Source: an uncultured bacterium (GTDB lineage: Bacteria; Acidobacteriota; Aminicenantia; Aminicenantales; Saccharicenantaceae). From it: DNA of 64,000 nt. Shown here piece by piece: positions 13,261-40,569 of the stretch; within the stretch, counting starts at the first letter, position 1; each line of letters starts with the position of its first letter. The stretch lies in assembly GCA_963805015.1 (NCBI GenBank), contig CAWDSL010000030.1, positions 6,258 through 70,257 of the forward strand, given 5' to 3'. The notes beneath the pieces were generated by a model, which worked only from the letters and a program-made list of their open reading frames with translations, was not told where the DNA came from and ran no database searches. The translations under genes were made by a program, and so were the position numbers.

Positions 13261-15694
13261 CTAACGGGCCTTGCCGGCGGTGGCCGGCAGGGACGACAAG
13301 CGGCCCCGGGCCTCCTCTATCTCGCGCCGGCCGGGCTCGGCGTCCTTCCAGAGCCCGAGGAACGCGCGATAGCCGTCGCGGGCCGCGTCCGCCCGTCCGA
13401 GCTTCTCGTCGAGCCGGGCCAGGTCGAGGACCGCCAGGGCATAGCGCCCTTCGGAGCGCAGGATGTCGCCGGGCGAGCCGGCGAGCGTTCTCAAGACCTC
13501 GGCGGCCCCGGCTGCGTCGCCGGCCCGCTCCCGGGCCGCGGCGAGAGCGCGGCCGTAAAGGAAGATCCGGCCGTCGAAATGGTCGCGCCGGGCGACCATC
13601 GATGCGGCCTTCCCGATGAGCTTGGCGGCTTCGGCGGGCCGGCCCGCGTCGAGCTCGATGAGCCCCCTCAGGAACTCTTGTTCGCGCCGCAGCCGGGTCG
13701 TCTTGCCCGTCGAGGCCAGGGCCAGGGACTGGACCGCCGTCGCTTCGGCGGCCGCGGCGTCCCCCGCGGAGAGCTGGGCCGTTGCCAGGAAGGTGAGCGC
13801 CGCGGCGAGCCGATAGCCCTGGCTCGCCTTGCGGGCCGCTTCGACCGCTTTCCCCGCCTCGGTCACGGCGGCTGCGGCGTTCCCAGCGTAGAGATAGGCC
13901 TGGCCCCGGCTGAGACGGAGGCTCGACACCCAGTCGTGCTGGCCGGTCGTCTCGGCCACGTCGGCCCCCTTGCCGAGCTCCTCCACGGCCTCACGGCACC
14001 GTCCTTCCGCCATGGCGACGGAGCCGAGCCGCTCGTGGGCCTTCAGGAACCAGGGCGCCTCCTCCATGAGGAAGAGGCGGCGGAACTCCTCCCGGGCCGC
14101 CGCGGCGCCCTGCGTATGGAACAGGACCGTGCCGCGCCAATAGGACCAGGAGGGATCGGGGAAGACGGAGACGGCCTTATCGAGCACGGCCCCGGCCGCC
14201 GCGAAGTCCTGGTTGTCGATCTGGATGTCGAGCAGGGTCTCGTAGACCAGCCGGTTGGCCGGGTGCTCCTCGTGGTAGGACTCGAGGAGCCGGACCGCGT
14301 CCCCGCCCCGGCCCAGGGCGTTCAGCGAAATCGCCCTCGTATGGTAGGGGAAGGGGCTGTCCGTGCCCCTGCGGATGGGGACCTCGGCGCACCTGGCCGC
14401 GGCGGCGTAATCCTCGAGATCGAAGTAGAGCATGGCCAGGTTGTTGTTCGCGACGATGTCGTCCGGATGGCCCTCGAGGACCATTTCGAAGGCCTCGACG
14501 CCCAGGGGGAACGTCGATTCCGAGAGGCTGTAGTAGTCGCCCCGGATGAGGTGGCGCTCCCGGGAGCTCTCGGGCAGGCCGCCGCTCAGGTCGAAAGCCG
14601 TCCGCGCGTAATCGATCTCCTGAGCGAAGTACCCGAGGTTCCGGGCGTCGACCGACATGAGCCGGTAGGCCATGGCGAACTTCGGATCGAGCTCGACGGC
14701 CTTCTTCAGCATGAGGAGGCTCTGCTCGTAGTCGCCCGTGGCGTGATAGCGCTGGGCTTCCGCGTAGTACCTGTAGGCCAGGGCGTAGGACGTGGTCAGG
14801 TCTTCGACGTCGAGGTCGACGTCCTCCCCGGCCGCGGCCGACCTCTGGGCGAGCCCGGACTTGACCTGGCGGACGAGCGCGTCGGCCTCGTCGAGCAGGC
14901 CTTGTTCGTCGGCGCAGACGATCCGGTCGGTCCGGACGGTGTCCCCGGTCCGGGCGTCCTGGAGGAAGGTCGTCACGACGATCGCGCTGCCGGCCTTCAT
15001 CAAGGTGCCGCAGAGGAGGTAATCGGCCTTCAGCTCCCGGGCCAGGCGCCGCAGCTCCTCCCGCGAGAAGCGGCGGCTCGTGGTCAGGCCGTGCTTCCTG
15101 AGGGCCCCGTAGACGAGGTCGCTCCCCACGGTCCGGAGACGCCGCGATTGGAGGAGGTCCGTGGTCAGGAGCGTCGGGAAGCCGGTCGCCCATTTCTCGA
15201 GGTCCGGGTCGCCCGAGGCGTTCTCGAAATCGAGGACGGCCAGGGCCGGCGCCGGCGGAAGGACGGCCGGGGCCTTTCCCCTCTGCCAGGGCTTCCAGGC
15301 GACCAGGGCGACGATCGCGACGCCGAGGACGAGGACCGCGGGGAGCGCCGCCCGGCGAGGCGCGAGCCCGGCCCGGAACGGGGACGGACCCGGCGGCCGG
15401 GGCGCGTCCGGTCTCTTCGAGCGCGGGCTGGAACGAGCGGACGAGCTGGATGCGGTTCCGGACGCCGAGCTTCCGGTAGATGTTGTGGATGTGGTTCTTG
15501 ACCGTATGGTCGGAGATGAAGAGCTCCGCGGTGATCCGCTTGTTGTCTTTGCCCTCGAGGAGCAGGCGGATGATCTCGCCTTCGCGGGCCGTGATCCCGA
15601 ACCGCTCGGCGCAGGCGGCGAAGGCGTCCCCGTTCTTCACGCGGAGGGAGGCCGCCGGTCCGGTCCGGCGGACGAGCGAACGGAACAAGCCCAT
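13261..15694 (-). CDS. LuxR-type HTH, TM, TolB_N/FlgO-like, TPR protein; one apparent +1 frameshift in the GC-rich linker (~15360-15420)
   Basis: GITAREGEIIRLLLEGKDNKRITAELFISDHTVKNHIHNIYRKLGV; next frame gives TM AALPAVLVLGVAIVALVAW, then LAVLDFENASGDPDL and TPR repeats (KKAVELDPKFAMAY). Confidence 0.8.
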
Positions 15695-37673: not shown

Positions 37674-38504
37674 CTATTTATAGACGCCGGCCGCGTCCCA
37701 TTTCCGGATCGTGTCGAGGACGAGCTCGGCGACGCGGTCGTTGACCTTGCGGAAATACTCCTTGGCCTGGGCGGCGTCGAAGGTCGGGGCGCCCTGGCCC
37801 TTCTCGTAGAGGAGGATCGTCGAGGAGACCGGGACCGTATAGTACGCTCCGGCCGGGGCGTTGGGCTCGGCCATCTCGGGCTTGTAGCGCTCGGGGTGGA
37901 TGAAAGCGGGGAGGAAGGCCTGGACGTAGGCCGTCTCGTTGTTCCCCGCGTGCCCGCCGTTCTGCTTGAACACGGCCTTGGTGATGTCGTCGGCCAGCGT
38001 CCACCAGTTGACGACCAGGACCCGGACGCGGCGGGCGTTGGCGACCTTGGTCGCGGCGGCGTTGAGGACGGCCGTGTTGCCGCCGTGCCCGTTGAGGACG
38101 ACGAGGTTCTTGAAACCCTGCGCGGCCAGGTTGTCGAGGACCGATTCGGCGAACGGCGCGTAGGCCTCGGCCGGGATGGAGACGGCCCCCGGATAGGCCT
38201 TCATGGCCTCGGTCATGCCGTAATTCAGGGTCGGCGCGATCAGGGCGTCCACCCGGGCGGCGATGTCGCGGGCCATGGCCTCGGGCGCGAGGCTGTCGGT
38301 GCCGTTGGGGATGACGCCGTGGGGCTCGAGCGAGCCGAAGGGGACGAGGACCGTTCGGACGCGCGCCGGCACCAGCTCGGCGAACTCCTGCCAGCAGAGC
38401 AGGGCCATCTCGCGCGTCGTCGGGGCTTTCGTCTGGGCCGCGGCCGGGGCGACGGCCGCCGCCGCCAATATCGCCACCGTCAGGACCGTCAGCGCTTTTC
38501 TCAT
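37674..38504 (-). CDS. Creatininase family amidohydrolase with signal peptide
   Basis: VPFGSLEPHGVIPNGTD, NGHGGN, GGHAGNNET; N-terminal signal peptide. Confidence 0.88.
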   Translation of the reverse strand: MRKALTVLTVAILAAAAVAPAAAQTKAPTTREMALLCWQEFAELVPARVRTVLVPFGSLEPHGVIPNGTDSLAPEAMARDIAARVDALIAPTLNYGMTEAMKAYPGAVSIPAEAYAPFAESVLDNLAAQGFKNLVVLNGHGGNTAVLNAAATKVANARRVRVLVVNWWTLADDITKAVFKQNGGHAGNNETAYVQAFLPAFIHPERYKPEMAEPNAPAGAYYTVPVSSTILLYEKGQGAPTFDAAQAKEYFRKVNDRVAELVLDTIRKWDAAGVYK

Positions 38505-38573
38505 GTCGGTCGCCTCCTCGCTCCCCTCATCTTACGACATCCGGCGCCCGTTCGGGAAATCCGGCGGCGGCTC

Positions 38574-38700
38574 TTGATTTTTTCCGCGGAGCGACTATAA
38601 TACCACCAAGTTTTCTTGTGCCGGCTGGAGGAAACTTCAACCCCATGAAATACATCATTTTCCCCCTTATCTGCTGTTAAAAAAACAGCCGGCATTTTCC
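38574..38700 (+). ncRNA. Candidate sRNA unit 1 (promoter plus stem-bounded RNA)
   Basis: TTGATT-N16-TATAAT (38574-38601), then TGCCGGCTG (38619) ... CAGCCGGCA (38694) enclosing ATCA-tttt-CCCCCTT. Confidence 0.55.
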
Positions 38701-38726
38701 CCGCGCGACACAAAAAAAATTACTCC

Positions 38727-38845
38727 TTGATTTTCCGACCGGCCGGACTATAATGGCTTCGGCTCTCTTTCGCCGGCTGGAGAGGGCTCCCTCAATTTCC
38801 AATCATCACCCCCCTTTTGCTGACCTCAGCCGGCACTTTCTCCCG
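38727..38845 (+). ncRNA. Candidate sRNA unit 2, tandem paralog of unit 1
   Basis: TTGATT-N16-TATAAT (38727-38754), then GCCGGCTG (38772) ... CAGCCGGC (38834) enclosing ATCA-tcac-CCCCCTT. Confidence 0.55.
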
Positions 38846-38904
38846 CTTCTCCCGGCGGCGCGATTGTGCTATCATACGGGCAATTCCCGAGCGCGGAGTT
38901 CCCG

Positions 38905-39369
38905 ATGGGCAAGATCGACTGGAAGAAAGAGCTGGCCAACCACTTCGAGAACGTGCGGGTCATCGAGCTCTGCCAGGCCGAGACCGTCGGGCAGTTCGAC
39001 CAGTTCTGCGAATTCATCGCCGAGCCCGCCTTCGAGGCCCTGGCCGACGAGCTGGCGAGCTTCCGCATCAAGTGCGAGCAGCAGAAGACCAAGGGCAAGA
39101 GCATCCGCTTCGTCATCTTCTTCCCGGGCCTGAAGGACGAACAGTTCCATTACCGGATCTCACTGCCCAAGAACGCGGTCGAGCTGCGGCTGAAGCTGCA
39201 GGTCAAGGCCCGGCGCACGCCCAAGGCCGAATATCAAACGGTGGACGAGGATTTCATGCCGGGGTTGTTCCCGTTCAAGGTGCTGAGGATGGACAAGGAC
39301 GAGGTCATCGCCGACGTCGTCAAGCACTACACGGGTTTTTGCTACACCGCGCTGACGTCGCCGGACTGA
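38905..39369 (+). CDS. Hypothetical cytoplasmic protein
   Basis: Clean 154-aa ORF with host-like codon usage; extended -10 TGcTATCAT upstream. Confidence 0.7.
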   Translation: MGKIDWKKELANHFENVRVIELCQAETVGQFDQFCEFIAEPAFEALADELASFRIKCEQQKTKGKSIRFVIFFPGLKDEQFHYRISLPKNAVELRLKLQVKARRTPKAEYQTVDEDFMPGLFPFKVLRMDKDEVIADVVKHYTGFCYTALTSPD

Positions 39370-39385: not shown

Positions 39386-39721
39386 TTACTTCTTTTTCTT
39401 GGCCTTGGCCGCTTTCGGCTTGCCCGTCTCGATCTTCTTCCACTTGCCGGCCGTCCAGACCCAGCGGCTGCCCACCTGCTCCCACGTGCCCGGGACCCAT
39501 TCCCGGCCCTTCTTGGCCTTGACCCAGCGGCCTTCGACCCAATCGTAGTTGACGTCCTTCCACTTCCAAAAGCCGGGGACCCAGACGTGCACGGGGCTGG
39601 GCCGGAGGGTCGGGGACTCGACCCGGAGCGGGGGAGGGCCGACCCGCGGCTGTTCCGCGGCCAGGCCGGATACCGCCATCAGGCAGACGGCGGCCAAGAC
39701 AAAAAGAGCGGTCTTCCTCAT
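39386..39721 (-). CDS. YXWGXW (WXXGXW) repeat secreted protein
   Basis: Signal peptide; VWVPGFWKW, WVEGRWV, EWVPGTWE, WVWTAGKW; basic tail. Confidence 0.88.
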   Translation of the reverse strand: MRKTALFVLAAVCLMAVSGLAAEQPRVGPPPLRVESPTLRPSPVHVWVPGFWKWKDVNYDWVEGRWVKAKKGREWVPGTWEQVGSRWVWTAGKWKKIETGKPKAAKAKKKK

Positions 39722-39768
39722 CGCATCCTCCACCTGTTTAGTCGGCGGAGGGGAGGAAAAGTCGGGCT

Positions 39769-40569
39769 TCACTTCCCGGCGTTGATGACCTCGAGGACCT
39801 TAAGGAGGTAATCGTAGCCCGGGCGGTCGACCGTGTTCTGGCTGACATACTTGAACTGGAGCACGCCCTGGGCGTCGACGATGTAGACGGCCGGGATGTT
39901 CTGGTCGACCTTGCTGCCTGTCCACTCGTGCCGGAAGAGGTCGAGCTTCGTGGAGAGCGCCCGCTCGCCGTCGACCAGGATGGGGAAGGGGGCCAGGACC
40001 GCGCCCTTCTCGAGCGCATAGTCGTTCGGATAGATCTGGCGCGCCCGCTCCATCCGGGCCTTGCCCGCATCGTCGAGCTTGACCGCGTCGGCGGGGAATT
40101 TCCGGGCCTTGATCGACTCGAGCTGCCCGGGCAGGGCCTCGAGCCAGACCTTGACGACGTCCGGCGCGTAGGGGAAGACGACCAGGATCTCCAGGTTGTA
40201 CTTTTCGCGGATCCCCTTGGCCTTCTCGAGCTCGGCCAGCTCGACGTAGCGGTAGTTGCAGATCGTGCACCAGTAGTTCTCGGCCGCGTAGCCGCGGGGA
40301 AAGAGGATGAGGACGTTCTTGCCGCGGAGCGACGACAGGGTCAGCGTCCCGCCCTGGTAGACGGGCAGCGTGAAATCGGGCATGGGCTGGCCGACGATGG
40401 CCGGCGAGGGCCTCACTTCGGGCTTGGCCGGGGGAACGGCGGGCTGGGCCTGTTGGGCCGGGACGGCCTGCTGTCCCTTGGCCTGGCCATTGAACAGGAT
40501 GATCATCGCGCCGACGGCCAGGACGACCAGGGCGATGACGAGGATGGTGGCTTTCTTCTTGTCGATCAT
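39769..40569 (-). CDS. Membrane-anchored peroxiredoxin-like redoxin (AhpC/TSA family)
   Basis: N-terminal TM; VGQPMPDFTLP, LSSLRGKNVLILFPRG..WCTIC, PAVYIVDAQGVLQFKY. Confidence 0.8.
   Translation of the reverse strand: MIDKKKATILVIALVVLAVGAMIILFNGQAKGQQAVPAQQAQPAVPPAKPEVRPSPAIVGQPMPDFTLPVYQGGTLTLSSLRGKNVLILFPRGYAAENYWCTICNYRYVELAELEKAKGIREKYNLEILVVFPYAPDVVKVWLEALPGQLESIKARKFPADAVKLDDAGKARMERARQIYPNDYALEKGAVLAPFPILVDGERALSTKLDLFRHEWTGSKVDQNIPAVYIVDAQGVLQFKYVSQNTVDRPGYDYLLKVLEVINAGK

What the first reader, a model, noticed from the sequence alone, without database searches (positions are those of the whole stretch)
38571..38850. Two tandem promoter-driven structured sRNA candidates with anti-Shine-Dalgarno-like loops
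Seen: the intergenic region holds two diverged copies of one unit. Each is TTGATT-N16-TATAAT (spacers both end GAC), then 17-18 nt, GCCGGCTGGAG, ATCA-N4-CCCCCTT, TGCTG, CAGCCGGCA(T/C)TTT..CCCGC. GCCGGCUG/CAGCCGGC closes each RNA. A GGAG-N4-CUYC hairpin is kept despite different loops (GAAA versus AGGG). The 3' CAGC can alternatively pair with the nearby GCUG, so the fold may switch. Only structural and seed elements are conserved while linkers diverge, which points to selection at the RNA level. Inference: paralogous trans-acting sRNAs whose CCCCCUU...AUCA seed could pair with AAGGGGG..UGAU translation starts, analogous to C-rich-loop sRNAs such as staphylococcal RsaE/RNAIII. I do not recognise an Rfam family.
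Basis: partly seen in the sequence, partly recalled or inferred. Interest (0 to 1): 0.75.

Follow-up and report, generated by a model that had tools for sequence, protein, structure and literature searches.

The report
Pseudoknotted sibling small RNAs, Aminicenantes
The gap holds two real, separately promoted genes for ~80-90-nt RNAs of an uncatalogued, extremely conserved RNA family found in nearly every genome of the uncultured Aminicenantales; comparative data show the fold is a pseudoknot displaying a C-rich loop, but what the RNAs act on is still not shown.

Summary
TTGATT-N16-TATAAT occurs twice in the window against 0 expected.

The units are two subtypes (T1, T2) of one RNA family. A third, universal subtype (T3) lies elsewhere in the same genome. 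The family is:
- present in 63 of 64 sampled genomes of the order, with 1-8 copies each, and in one further family of the class;
- absent from about 229 other Acidobacteriota;
- without a match in Rfam 15 or in the searched literature.

In 99 of 119 distinct copies a near-consensus -10 box ends exactly 6 nt before the same nucleotide. This fixes the strand and the 5' end.

Covariation redraws the fold as an H-type pseudoknot:
- GCCGGCUG/CAGCCGGC is a second helix that crosses the first (two covarying pairs).
- The connecting loops are fixed at 3 nt and 1 nt.
- The 17-53-nt third loop carries the invariant AUCA-C5-6-U2-4 motif.

Pairing with G-rich ribosome-binding sites is the most likely function but remains unproven.

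The parts
38574..38601 (+). Promoter of sRNA T1: -35 TTGATT (38574-38579), 16-nt spacer, -10 TATAAT (38596-38601)
   Evidence: Across 18 distinct T1 copies the -10 box ends exactly 6 nt before the first paired nucleotide, with a mean of 5.9 of 6 matches to TATAAT.
38608..38698 (+). sRNA T1, about 91 nt. Parts:
- S1 5' strand, 38608-38616 (AAGUUUUCU)
- L1, 38617-38619
- S2 5' strand, 38620-38627 (GCCGGCUG)
- L2, G38628
- S1 3' strand, 38629-38637 (AGGAAACUU)
- L3, 38638-38685
- S2 3' strand, 38686-38693 (CAGCCGGC)
- AUUUU tail, 38694-38698
   Evidence: Model R1 scores it 74.6 bits, E 4.7e-16. Helices are supported by covariation. A U-run follows S2 in T1 copies. Coordinates checked.
38654..38668 (+). 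Conserved single-stranded motif of T1 within loop L3: AUCAUUUUCCCCCUU (candidate seed)
   Evidence: Conserved in all T1 copies. It is complementary to AAGGGGGAAAAUGAU-type ribosome-binding-site and start-codon sequences. There is a 13-nt match at one lipoprotein gene start in the same genome, only partly conserved in orthologues.
38727..38754 (+). Promoter of sRNA T2: -35 TTGATT (38727-38732), 16-nt spacer, -10 TATAAT (38749-38754)
   Evidence: The -10 box ends 6 nt before S1 in 23 of 26 distinct T2 copies.
38761..38838 (+). sRNA T2, at least 78 nt; the 3' end is not defined. Parts:
- S1 5' strand, 38761-38768 (GGCUCUCU)
- L1, 38769-38771
- S2 5' strand, 38772-38779
- L2, G38780
- S1 3' strand, 38781-38788 (AGAGGGCU)
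- L3, 38789-38826
- S2 3' strand, 38827-38834
   Evidence: Model R1 scores it 83.1 bits, E 3.1e-18. The sequence is nearly invariant across the genus and into other families of the order. Covariation. No conserved terminator follows.
38802..38818 (+). Conserved single-stranded motif of T2 within loop L3: AUCAUCACCCCCCUUUU
   Evidence: AUCA followed within 0-4 nt by a run of at least 5 C occurs in 76 of 93 distinct family members. A C5+ run followed by at least 2 U occurs in 85 of 93.
38867..38875 (+). Extended -10 (TGCTATCAT) of the downstream protein gene. This is a separate promoter, not part of the sRNA.
   Evidence: GATTGTGCTATCAT recurs downstream of T2 in other genomes.
38905..39369 (+). 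Gene for a 154-aa orphan protein that is syntenic with T2. A functional link to the RNA is unproven.
   Evidence: - It follows T2 at a median of about 80 nt in 37 loci.
- It is single-copy in 60 of 64 genomes of the order and in none outside the order.
- It has no Pfam, NCBIfam or PDB match.
- The confident model (pLDDT 91) has no fold match.
37674..38504 (-). Creatininase-family gene, the divergent left neighbour (context only)
   Evidence: Pfam PF02633, E 4.5e-43. It is the left neighbour in 41 T1/T2 loci.

Best explanation
**Shown.** Window 38608-38698 (T1) and 38761 to about 38838 (T2) are two paralogous genes for small non-coding RNAs. Each is transcribed from its own near-consensus sigma-70 promoter, and transcription starts at the first nucleotide of the structure. 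They belong to an uncatalogued RNA family of the class Aminicenantia that is essentially universal in the order Aminicenantales. The same genome carries the universal third paralogue (T3) as an orphan gene between two opposite-strand genes.

The RNA folds as an H-type pseudoknot:
- Helix S1 joins the 5' end to the GGAG-containing segment.
- Helix S2 (GCCGGCUG/CAGCCGGC) joins the loop of S1 to the 3' end.
- L1 is 3 nt, L2 is 1 nt, and L3 is a variable-length loop of 17-53 nt.

**Inferred.** The knot ties down both ends, which would give stability, and presents L3 as a single strand. L3 carries a C-rich box after S1 and the near-invariant AUCA-C5-6-U2-4 box. This loop base-pairs in trans with G-rich Shine-Dalgarno and start-codon regions of mRNAs and blocks translation initiation. 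The siblings T1, T2 and T3 would have overlapping but distinct target sets, because their sequences differ around the C-run. An Hfq-like protein is encoded and could assist.
For: **Family and distribution**
- DNA search: 61 of 61 relatives have matches.
- Covariance model R1: 63 of 64 sampled genomes of the order, plus family f13; 0 in the other classes of the phylum.
- Record titles name Candidatus Aminicenantes.
- The own genome has exactly 3 copies.

**Strand and 5' end**
- The -10 box ends 6 nt before S1 in 99 of 119 distinct copies.
- 94 G-U cells in the helices would become mismatches on the other strand, against 23 unpaired cells on the + strand.

**Fold**
- On a MAFFT alignment of 60 sequences, 98.8% of cells pair, against 41-53% when partners are slid. 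Seven of 9 S1 pairs change on both sides.
- On 93 distinct sequences gathered without imposing S2: all 8 S1 pairs covary. S2 pairs in 99% of cells. One S2 pair reads GC 43, CG 42, UA 3, AU 1, and another reads UA 87, CG 3.
- L1 is 3 nt in 86 of 90 sequences and L2 is 1 nt in 90 of 90, while L3 ranges from 17 to 53 nt.

**Not a leader**
- T3 lies between two minus-strand genes in this genome.
- In about 60 of 95 T3 loci the downstream gene is convergent.

**Loop motif**
- The motif is conserved.
- Diverged members carry CCUCCUU, the exact anti-Shine-Dalgarno core.
- The 16S rRNA tail in this order is canonical, GAUCACCUCCUUUC.
- SD-type sites are used by the genome, and about 4% of genes have a run of at least 5 G there.

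**Chaperone.** An Hfq-like domain is present in 29 of 31 relatives.
Against:
- No target is identified. Three scans of the genome showed no enrichment over reversed-seed controls:
  - duplex energies near 2,997 predicted gene starts;
  - 11-mer complementarity genome-wide;
  - 9-mer complementarity near gene starts, at T1 37 net against 32, T2 46 against 28, T3 31 against 33.
- Near-100% conservation of about 45 nt of loop across an order is more than a short seed needs. It would fit a protein or machine partner at least as well.
- CCCCCC pairs imperfectly with the commonest SD, GGAGG.
- T2 and T3 lack a conserved terminator.
- In some genomes T1 or T2 sit directly upstream of a same-strand gene.
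Confidence: 0.5

Rival explanations
1. Protein-binding or decoy RNA. The invariant loop is a binding site for a conserved protein or machine, not a seed for mRNAs. Candidates are the co-distributed 154-aa orphan protein, an Hfq- or KH-type protein, or a factor that reads the 16S 3' tail.
For: - Conservation of the whole loop far exceeds a typical seed.
- The orphan protein has the same order-level distribution (60 of 64 genomes) and sits next to T2 in 37 loci.
- No mRNA target enrichment was found.
- CGGCUGGA is shared with the 16S helix-45 3' strand, reached by 0-2 of 2000 shuffles for T1 and T2.
Against: - The orphan protein has no recognisable RNA-binding fold: best PDB match E 0.15, TM at most 0.43.
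- Genus g18 keeps the protein and T3, but no T1 or T2 was detected there.
- Family f13 has the RNA but not the protein.
- Likeness of the C-run box to the 16S tail is not beyond chance: 243, 688 and 1523 of 2000 shuffles.
Confidence: 0.2
2. Cis-acting leader or riboswitch-like pseudoknot aptamer. It would control the gene downstream: the 154-aa protein after T2, and a GT9-like gene after T1 in some genomes.
For: - The H-type pseudoknot architecture resembles small riboswitch aptamers.
- T2 is followed at about 80 nt by the same gene in 37 loci.
- In G037 a gene starts 20 nt after T1.
- T2 and T3 lack a clear terminator.
Against: - T3, the universal member, is an orphan between opposite-strand genes here. 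It faces a convergent gene in about 60 of 95 loci.
- The right-hand neighbours of T3 vary among agmatinase, a GAF-domain gene and others.
- The gene after T2 has its own conserved extended -10 promoter.
- T1 is followed by a U-run and then by another promoter.
- No riboswitch family matches.
Confidence: 0.1
3. Type III toxin-antitoxin-like module: tandem pseudoknotted RNA repeats (antitoxin) upstream of a small protein (toxin).
For: Two tandem RNA units that form pseudoknots lie directly upstream of a 154-aa protein of unknown function.
Against: - Each unit has its own promoter and the units are 150 bp apart. They are not short head-to-tail repeats.
- The protein has no sequence or fold match to ToxN, AbiQ or CptN.
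- RNA and protein are universal, single-locus and vertically conserved in the order. That is unlike mobile defence or TA modules.
- T3 stands alone.
Confidence: 0.03
4. Minus-strand small-peptide genes: AAGGGGG followed by ATGATG on the opposite strand would be a real ribosome-binding site and start codon.
For: The reverse complement reads like an SD, a spacer and ATG. A 27-aa frame is open in 19 of 73 T3 copies.
Against: - Open frames range from 3 to 63 codons.
- The same conserved DNA is read in different frames in different genomes (T2: MIGNFEGALSS... against MIGFLREPSPAG...).
- The frames run through the + strand promoter.
- Indels in the loop are not multiples of 3.
- Covarying helix positions give non-conservative amino-acid changes.
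- G-U pairs fit only the + strand.
- The promoter geometry is on the + strand.
Confidence: 0.02

Closest known systems
RsaE/RoxS of Bacillales (Rfam RF01820)
   Same: - Short, strongly promoted, order-wide conserved trans-acting sRNA type.
- Unpaired C-rich boxes pair with G-rich Shine-Dalgarno regions.
- Paralogous copies occur in some genomes.
   Different: - No sequence or structure homology: no Rfam match even at E 10.
- RsaE is built of hairpins plus a terminator (own knowledge). This RNA is a pseudoknot that ties the 5' and 3' ends together.
- The phylum is different.
- Targets here are unknown.
6C RNA of Actinobacteria (Rfam RF01066)
   Same: - Small RNA of high-G+C bacteria, defined by runs of at least 6 C in exposed loops.
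- Very high sequence conservation.
   Different: - 6C displays its C-runs in two hairpin loops (own knowledge). Here one C-run lies in a long pseudoknot loop, with a second C-rich box after S1.
- No covariance-model match.
Small H-type pseudoknot riboswitch aptamers (SAM-II RF00521, preQ1-II RF01054, fluoride RF01734)
   Same: Compact H-type pseudoknot with short fixed L1 and L2 and strongly conserved loop nucleotides.
   Different: - No conserved downstream gene or expression platform for the universal member T3.
- Each copy has its own promoter.
- L3 is long and variable in length.
- No covariance-model match.
Sibling sRNA sets such as Qrr1-5, OmrA/B or the Prr RNAs
   Same: Several paralogous sRNA genes per genome, some in tandem, each with its own promoter. 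They share a scaffold and a conserved seed, with divergent linkers.
   Different: Unrelated sequences and hosts. Those siblings are hairpin RNAs with known regulators and targets (own knowledge).

Membership tests
RsaE/RoxS (RF01820) | Match to the Rfam covariance model | tested here: not met
   No hit at gathering score in the window. No hit up to E 10 in 38480-38930 or at the T3 locus.
RsaE/RoxS (RF01820) | Unpaired C-rich motifs that pair with G-rich ribosome-binding sites | tested here: inconclusive
   C-rich boxes lie in the unpaired loop L3. Pairing with ribosome-binding sites is not shown, because scans found no enrichment.
6C RNA (RF01066) | Match to the Rfam covariance model; two hairpin loops each with at least 6 C | tested here: not met
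   No Rfam hit. The supported structure is a pseudoknot, not two hairpins.
H-type pseudoknot riboswitches (SAM-II, preQ1-II, fluoride) | Match to a riboswitch covariance model | tested here: not met
   none.
H-type pseudoknot riboswitches (SAM-II, preQ1-II, fluoride) | Location in the 5' UTR of a functionally coherent set of downstream genes | tested here: not met
   T3 lies between opposite-strand genes in this genome. The downstream gene is convergent in about 60 of 95 T3 loci. Right-hand neighbours vary.
Type III toxin-antitoxin (ToxIN-like) | Toxin of the ToxN/AbiQ/CptN fold downstream of short tandem RNA repeats | tested here: not met
   - PDB profile search: 0 hits.
- Foldseek with the pLDDT-91 model: no hit with E at or below 0.001.
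- The units are 150 bp apart, each with its own promoter.
HDV-like self-cleaving ribozymes | Nested double pseudoknot starting at +1, with a P3/L3 hairpin between P2 and P1 and a catalytic C in J4/2 | tested here: not met
   Only 1 nt (L2) lies between the S2 5' strand and the S1 3' strand in 90 of 90 sequences, so there is no room for P3. No Rfam ribozyme hit.
tRNA / tmRNA | Cloverleaf detected by ARAGORN | tested here: not met
   ARAGORN finds nothing at any of the copies.
Aminicenantes pseudoknotted sRNA family (defined here, model R1) | The family is defined by four features:
- a near-consensus -10 box 6 nt before the RNA;
- S1 formed by the 5' end and a GGNGNNNN segment;
- S2, GC(C/G)GGCUG with CAGCC(G/C)GC;
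- an AUCA-C5-6-U2-4 box in L3. | tested here: met
   T1 scores 74.6 bits and T2 83.1 bits against R1. All features are at the coordinates checked.

The most novel reading that the evidence does not exclude
The RNAs are not ordinary seed-pairing regulators. They would be the RNA half of an Aminicenantales-specific ribonucleoprotein or decoy system. In this reading the ultra-conserved pseudoknot loop imitates part of the 16S rRNA 3' end (a shared CGGCUGGA, and AUCACC-C/U-CC-UUU). It would titrate whatever reads that tail: SD-bearing mRNAs globally, or a ribosome-maturation factor. It might work together with the equally lineage-restricted 154-aa orphan protein encoded next to T2.
Probability: 0.08. 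Interest if true: 0.85.

Novelty: new variant of a known kind. Interest (0 to 1): 0.6.

Why it matters
Aminicenantes (candidate phylum OP8) are abundant in anoxic sediments, aquifers and digesters. They have no cultured member, and in the library searched here no paper describes an RNA regulator for them.

This family is about as conserved as a tRNA gene and is driven by near-consensus promoters. It is present in essentially every genome of the order, often as several siblings. It is therefore probably a central, highly expressed regulator of the lineage.

Its architecture is unusual for bacterial sRNAs: a covariation-proven pseudoknot locks both RNA ends and exposes one long C-rich loop. That makes it a clean target for structure and mechanism studies in surrogate hosts. 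It also gives a ready marker for Aminicenantes transcripts in metatranscriptomes and a candidate new Rfam family.

Tried and rejected
- **Rfam.** At gathering and E-value thresholds, on the window and on the T3 locus, only chance hits with E at or above 0.59.
- **tRNA/tmRNA.** ARAGORN found nothing at the copies.
- **Single-sequence folding.** z-scores of -0.3 to -1.6 on either strand are uninformative, and the method cannot see the pseudoknot.
- **Target prediction in the genome.** There was no enrichment over reversed-seed controls for duplex energies at 2,997 gene starts, for 11-mers genome-wide or for 9-mers near starts. The 12-mer or longer matches are mostly inside coding regions.
  - The best lead is T1 against AGGGGGAAAAUGA at the start of lipoprotein paralogues on contig C12. 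It is only partly conserved in orthologues and looks like a generic strong ribosome-binding site.
- **Creatininase 5' region as a T1 target.** The complementary AGAUGAGGGG is a conserved TAAGAT -10 box, so most of it is probably not transcribed.
- **DUF3467 and the 154-aa gene as targets.** Duplexes were long, gapped and unconvincing.
- **The 154-aa neighbour.** No hit in Pfam, NCBIfam, PDB sequence search or two Foldseek searches.
- **16S-tail mimicry.** The C-run box is no more similar to the tail than shuffled sequences are.
- **Triple helix.** I considered one between the C/U run and the purine strand of S1. I dropped it because the register fits T1 and T3 only partly and does not fit T2 (by inspection, not computed).
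- **Hfq, CsrA and ProQ by tblastn.** The Pfam search superseded this and found an Hfq-like domain.
- **Literature.** No paper combines Aminicenantes with small or non-coding RNA.
Full report
**1. The observation**

The 400-bp gap lies between a minus-strand creatininase-family gene (37674-38504, Pfam PF02633) and a plus-strand gene (38905-39369).

| Element | Unit 1 | Unit 2 |
|---|---|---|
| -35 TTGATT | 38574-38579 | 38727-38732 |
| -10 TATAAT (16-nt spacer) | 38596-38601 | 38749-38754 |
| Gap to GCCGGCTGGAG | 18 nt | 17 nt |
| ATCA...C-run...T-run box | 38654-38668 | 38802-38818 |
| CAGCCGGC | 38686-38693 | 38827-38834 |

- The promoter pattern occurs twice in 64 kb against 0 expected. The promoter scan gives 2 sites against 0.1 expected.
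- G+C falls from about 0.70 to 0.49-0.52 over the gap.

**2. What it belongs to**

*Distribution*
- A DNA search of 61 related genomes found the tandem pair, or its second unit, in all of them. It also found further look-alike copies elsewhere in each genome.
Most of their titles read Candidatus Aminicenantes or Aminicenantales; many other records carry a generic 'uncultured Eubacteriales' placeholder title.
- I built covariance model R1. It finds 3 copies in the window's own genome. That genome is a 3.48-Mb MAG, 83% complete. The copies are the two units here and a third at G000:C9:14423-14506.
- R1 finds 1-8 copies in 63 of 64 sampled genomes of the order. It finds copies in one family (f13) of another order of the class. 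It finds none in the other classes of the phylum.

*Not catalogued*
- Rfam 15 has no match at gathering or permissive thresholds.
- ARAGORN finds no tRNA or tmRNA at the copies.
- No paper in the library links Aminicenantes with small or non-coding RNAs.

*Three subtypes*
- T1 is unit 1: AAGUUUUCUUGY GCCGGCUGGAGAAAACUUC ... AUCAUUUUCCCCCUUUUCUGCUGUU-A-rich-CAGCCGGC-AUUU.
- T2 is unit 2, nearly invariant.
- T3 is the universal member: GGCUUUCUUGN GCGGGCUGGAGAAAGCCCCCACCUUUUUGGUUCCCAUCAUCAACCCCCCUUUUGCUGACAACAGCCCGCAC.

**3. Strand, ends, and the coding alternative**

- In 99 of 119 distinct copies a -10 hexamer ends exactly 6 nt before the first nucleotide of the 5' helix. The hexamers match TATAAT at 5.5-5.9 of 6 positions on average, and a -35 box lies 16-18 nt upstream.
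It also fixes the + strand as the transcribed one.
- The helices contain 94 G-U cells, which would be A-C mismatches on the other strand, against 23 non-pairs on the + strand.

- The open frames there range from 3 to 63 codons.
- The same conserved DNA is read in different frames in different genomes.
- The frames run through the + strand promoter.
- Loop indels are not multiples of three.

The peptide reading is rejected.

The 3' ends are less clear. T1 copies have a U-run right after the last helix (here AUUUU, 38694-38698). T2 and T3 are followed by pyrimidine-rich sequence, with or without a C-run/G-run hairpin.

**4. The fold**

- AAGUUUUCU / AGAAAACUU
- GGCUCUCU / AGAGGGCU
- GGCUUUCU / AGAAAGCC
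- in diverged members, AAUCUUAU / GUAAGAUU and AACCUUGU / ACAAGGUU

| Test | Result |
|---|---|
| MAFFT alignment of 60 sequences | 98.8% of cells pair, against 41-53% for slid partners; 7 of 9 S1 pairs change on both sides |
| 93 distinct sequences collected by a model and pattern that did not impose S2 pairing | all 8 S1 pairs covary (97.8% paired); S2 is 99% paired, with one pair GC 43 / CG 42 / UA 3 / AU 1 and another UA 87 / CG 3; 0 of 500 shuffles reach any observed measure |

S2's 5' strand lies inside the loop of S1, so the two helices cross. This is an H-type pseudoknot.

- L1 is 3 nt in 86 of 90 sequences, L2 is 1 nt in 90 of 90, and L3 ranges from 17 to 53 nt. This fits a compact, stacked knot.
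- Helix energies are about -16 kcal/mol for S2 and -7 to -11 for S1.

It is 91% paired, and one pair is broken in 17 of 60 sequences. It competes with S1.

GCUGAC is absent from several otherwise intact members (L182-184, L168, L170). I do not consider it a conserved feature.

Covariation cannot by itself prove that S1 and S2 form at the same time.

**5. Cis or trans**

- The universal member T3 lies on the + strand between two minus-strand genes in this genome. These are DUF3467 at 13987-14280 and an agmatinase-like gene at 14605-15453.
- Across loci its downstream gene is convergent in about 60 of 95 cases.
- Its constant neighbour is the divergent DUF3467 gene. The right-hand neighbour varies.

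This excludes a leader or riboswitch role for the family as a whole.

T1 and T2 have conserved synteny: creatininase gene, T1, T2, then a 154-aa protein gene. That gene carries its own conserved extended -10 box (TGCTATCAT, 38867-38875). In family f2 a GT9-like gene starts 20 nt after T1 and separates it from T2. Some copies may therefore also act as 5' leaders.

**6. Function**

The most conserved part is the unpaired loop.
- AUCA followed within 0-4 nt by a run of at least 5 C occurs in 76 of 93 distinct members.
- A C5+ run followed by at least 2 U occurs in 85 of 93.
- A second C-rich box follows S1.
- Diverged members carry CCUCCUU, the anti-Shine-Dalgarno core.
- The 16S tail in this order is the canonical GGAUCACCUCCUUUC.
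- The genome uses SD sites. GGAGG lies upstream of 21% of predicted starts, and a G5 run upstream of about 4%.
- The reverse complement of the T1 box reads AAGGGGGAAAAUGAUG, a ribosome-binding site plus start codon.

The best-supported mechanism is therefore antisense masking of G-rich translation initiation regions, as in the C-rich sRNAs RsaE/RoxS and 6C. An Hfq-like domain is encoded in 29 of 31 relatives.

This step is inference. In the window's genome I found no enrichment of complementarity over reversed-seed controls. The one attractive hit is a 13-nt match of T1 at the start of lipoprotein paralogues. It is only partly conserved and looks like a generic strong ribosome-binding site.

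The loop is far more conserved than a seed needs to be. This keeps a protein- or machine-binding role open. Likeness of the C-run box to the 16S tail is not beyond chance. An 8-mer, CGGCUGGA, is shared with the helix-45 3' strand in T1 and T2.

**7. The neighbour protein**

- The 154-aa protein has no Pfam, NCBIfam or PDB-sequence relative.
- All 170 homologous clusters that carry a name are named 'hypothetical protein'. The named ones come from Aminicenantes or, in one case, Acidobacteriota.
- It is single-copy in 60 of 64 genomes of the order and absent outside it.
- With a 57-sequence alignment AlphaFold gives pLDDT 91. The fold is a long N-terminal helix, a five-stranded sheet and a C-terminal helix. 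No PDB fold match is found: best E 0.15, and weak resemblances to RNA-phage coat proteins and PUR repeats are not significant.
- A functional link to T2 is possible but unsupported. Genus g18 keeps the protein with only T3 detected. Family f13 has the RNA without the protein.

**8. Earlier notes of this scan**

Other readers and follow-up agents had flagged the same family in other genomes. They reached the same general reading: an undescribed pseudoknotted sRNA family of Aminicenantes with RsaE-like C-rich loops. I treated these as leads. The family, the pseudoknot, the promoter geometry and the distribution were all re-derived here from my own alignments and searches.

**9. Verdict**

- The feature is real.
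- The secondary structure needs correcting. It is a pseudoknot with the 5' end, not a GGAG hairpin, and there is no evidence for a switch.
- The family is new to public catalogues. I class it as a new variant of a known kind, the C-rich regulatory sRNAs. Its scaffold is unusual and its target is still unknown.

Noticed in passing
window 38905-39369 (+): A 154-aa orphan protein family of constant length, specific to the Aminicenantales.
- Single-copy in 60 of 64 genomes of the order and in none outside it.
- No Pfam, NCBIfam or PDB relative.
- A confident AlphaFold model (pLDDT 91) with no PDB fold match.
- It always sits about 80 nt after T2 and has its own extended -10 promoter.
   Followed up: yes
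G000:C9:14423-14506 (own genome, outside the window); L163: This is the third and universal paralogue, T3, of the RNA family. It is an orphan + strand gene between a divergent DUF3467 gene and a convergent agmatinase-like gene. The DUF3467 neighbour is conserved in at least 22 loci.
   Followed up: partly
Several MAG contig ends, e.g. L048 1-61, L073 1-40, G043:C186:10-50, G034:C13:18-60, G023:C105:20-62: T3 copies are cut off at contig ends in many MAGs. The near-identical sequence across co-occurring species probably breaks metagenome assemblies, as rRNA genes do.
   Followed up: no
L042 (G037:C1:1984000-1985700) 242-1424: In family f2 a GT9-like (heptosyltransferase-type) gene starts 20 nt after T1 and separates T1 from T2. 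T1 may double as that gene's 5' leader there.
   Followed up: partly
window 38505-38573 (- strand sense), and homologous loci: The creatininase gene's upstream region holds a conserved TAAGATG(A/G)GGG motif about 25-35 nt before the ATG. It is probably that gene's -10 box. With it, the 400-bp gap would hold four promoters.
   Followed up: partly
G000:C12:29572-31269 (own genome): Three tandem paralogous lipoprotein genes (MKK..ACQDK). Their start regions, GGAGGGGGAAAAUGA, match the T1 loop over 11-13 nt. This is a candidate target, but the match is only partly conserved in orthologues.
   Followed up: partly
G000:C26:158346-158513 and relatives: An Hfq/Sm-like domain scores just above the Pfam cut-off (28-38 bits) in 26 of 31 Aminicenantales genomes. 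It is a possible sRNA chaperone.
   Followed up: no
window 39386-40569 (-): Downstream lie a WXXGXW-repeat mini-protein (PF12779) and an AhpC/TSA-type redoxin. They appear unrelated to the RNAs.
   Followed up: no
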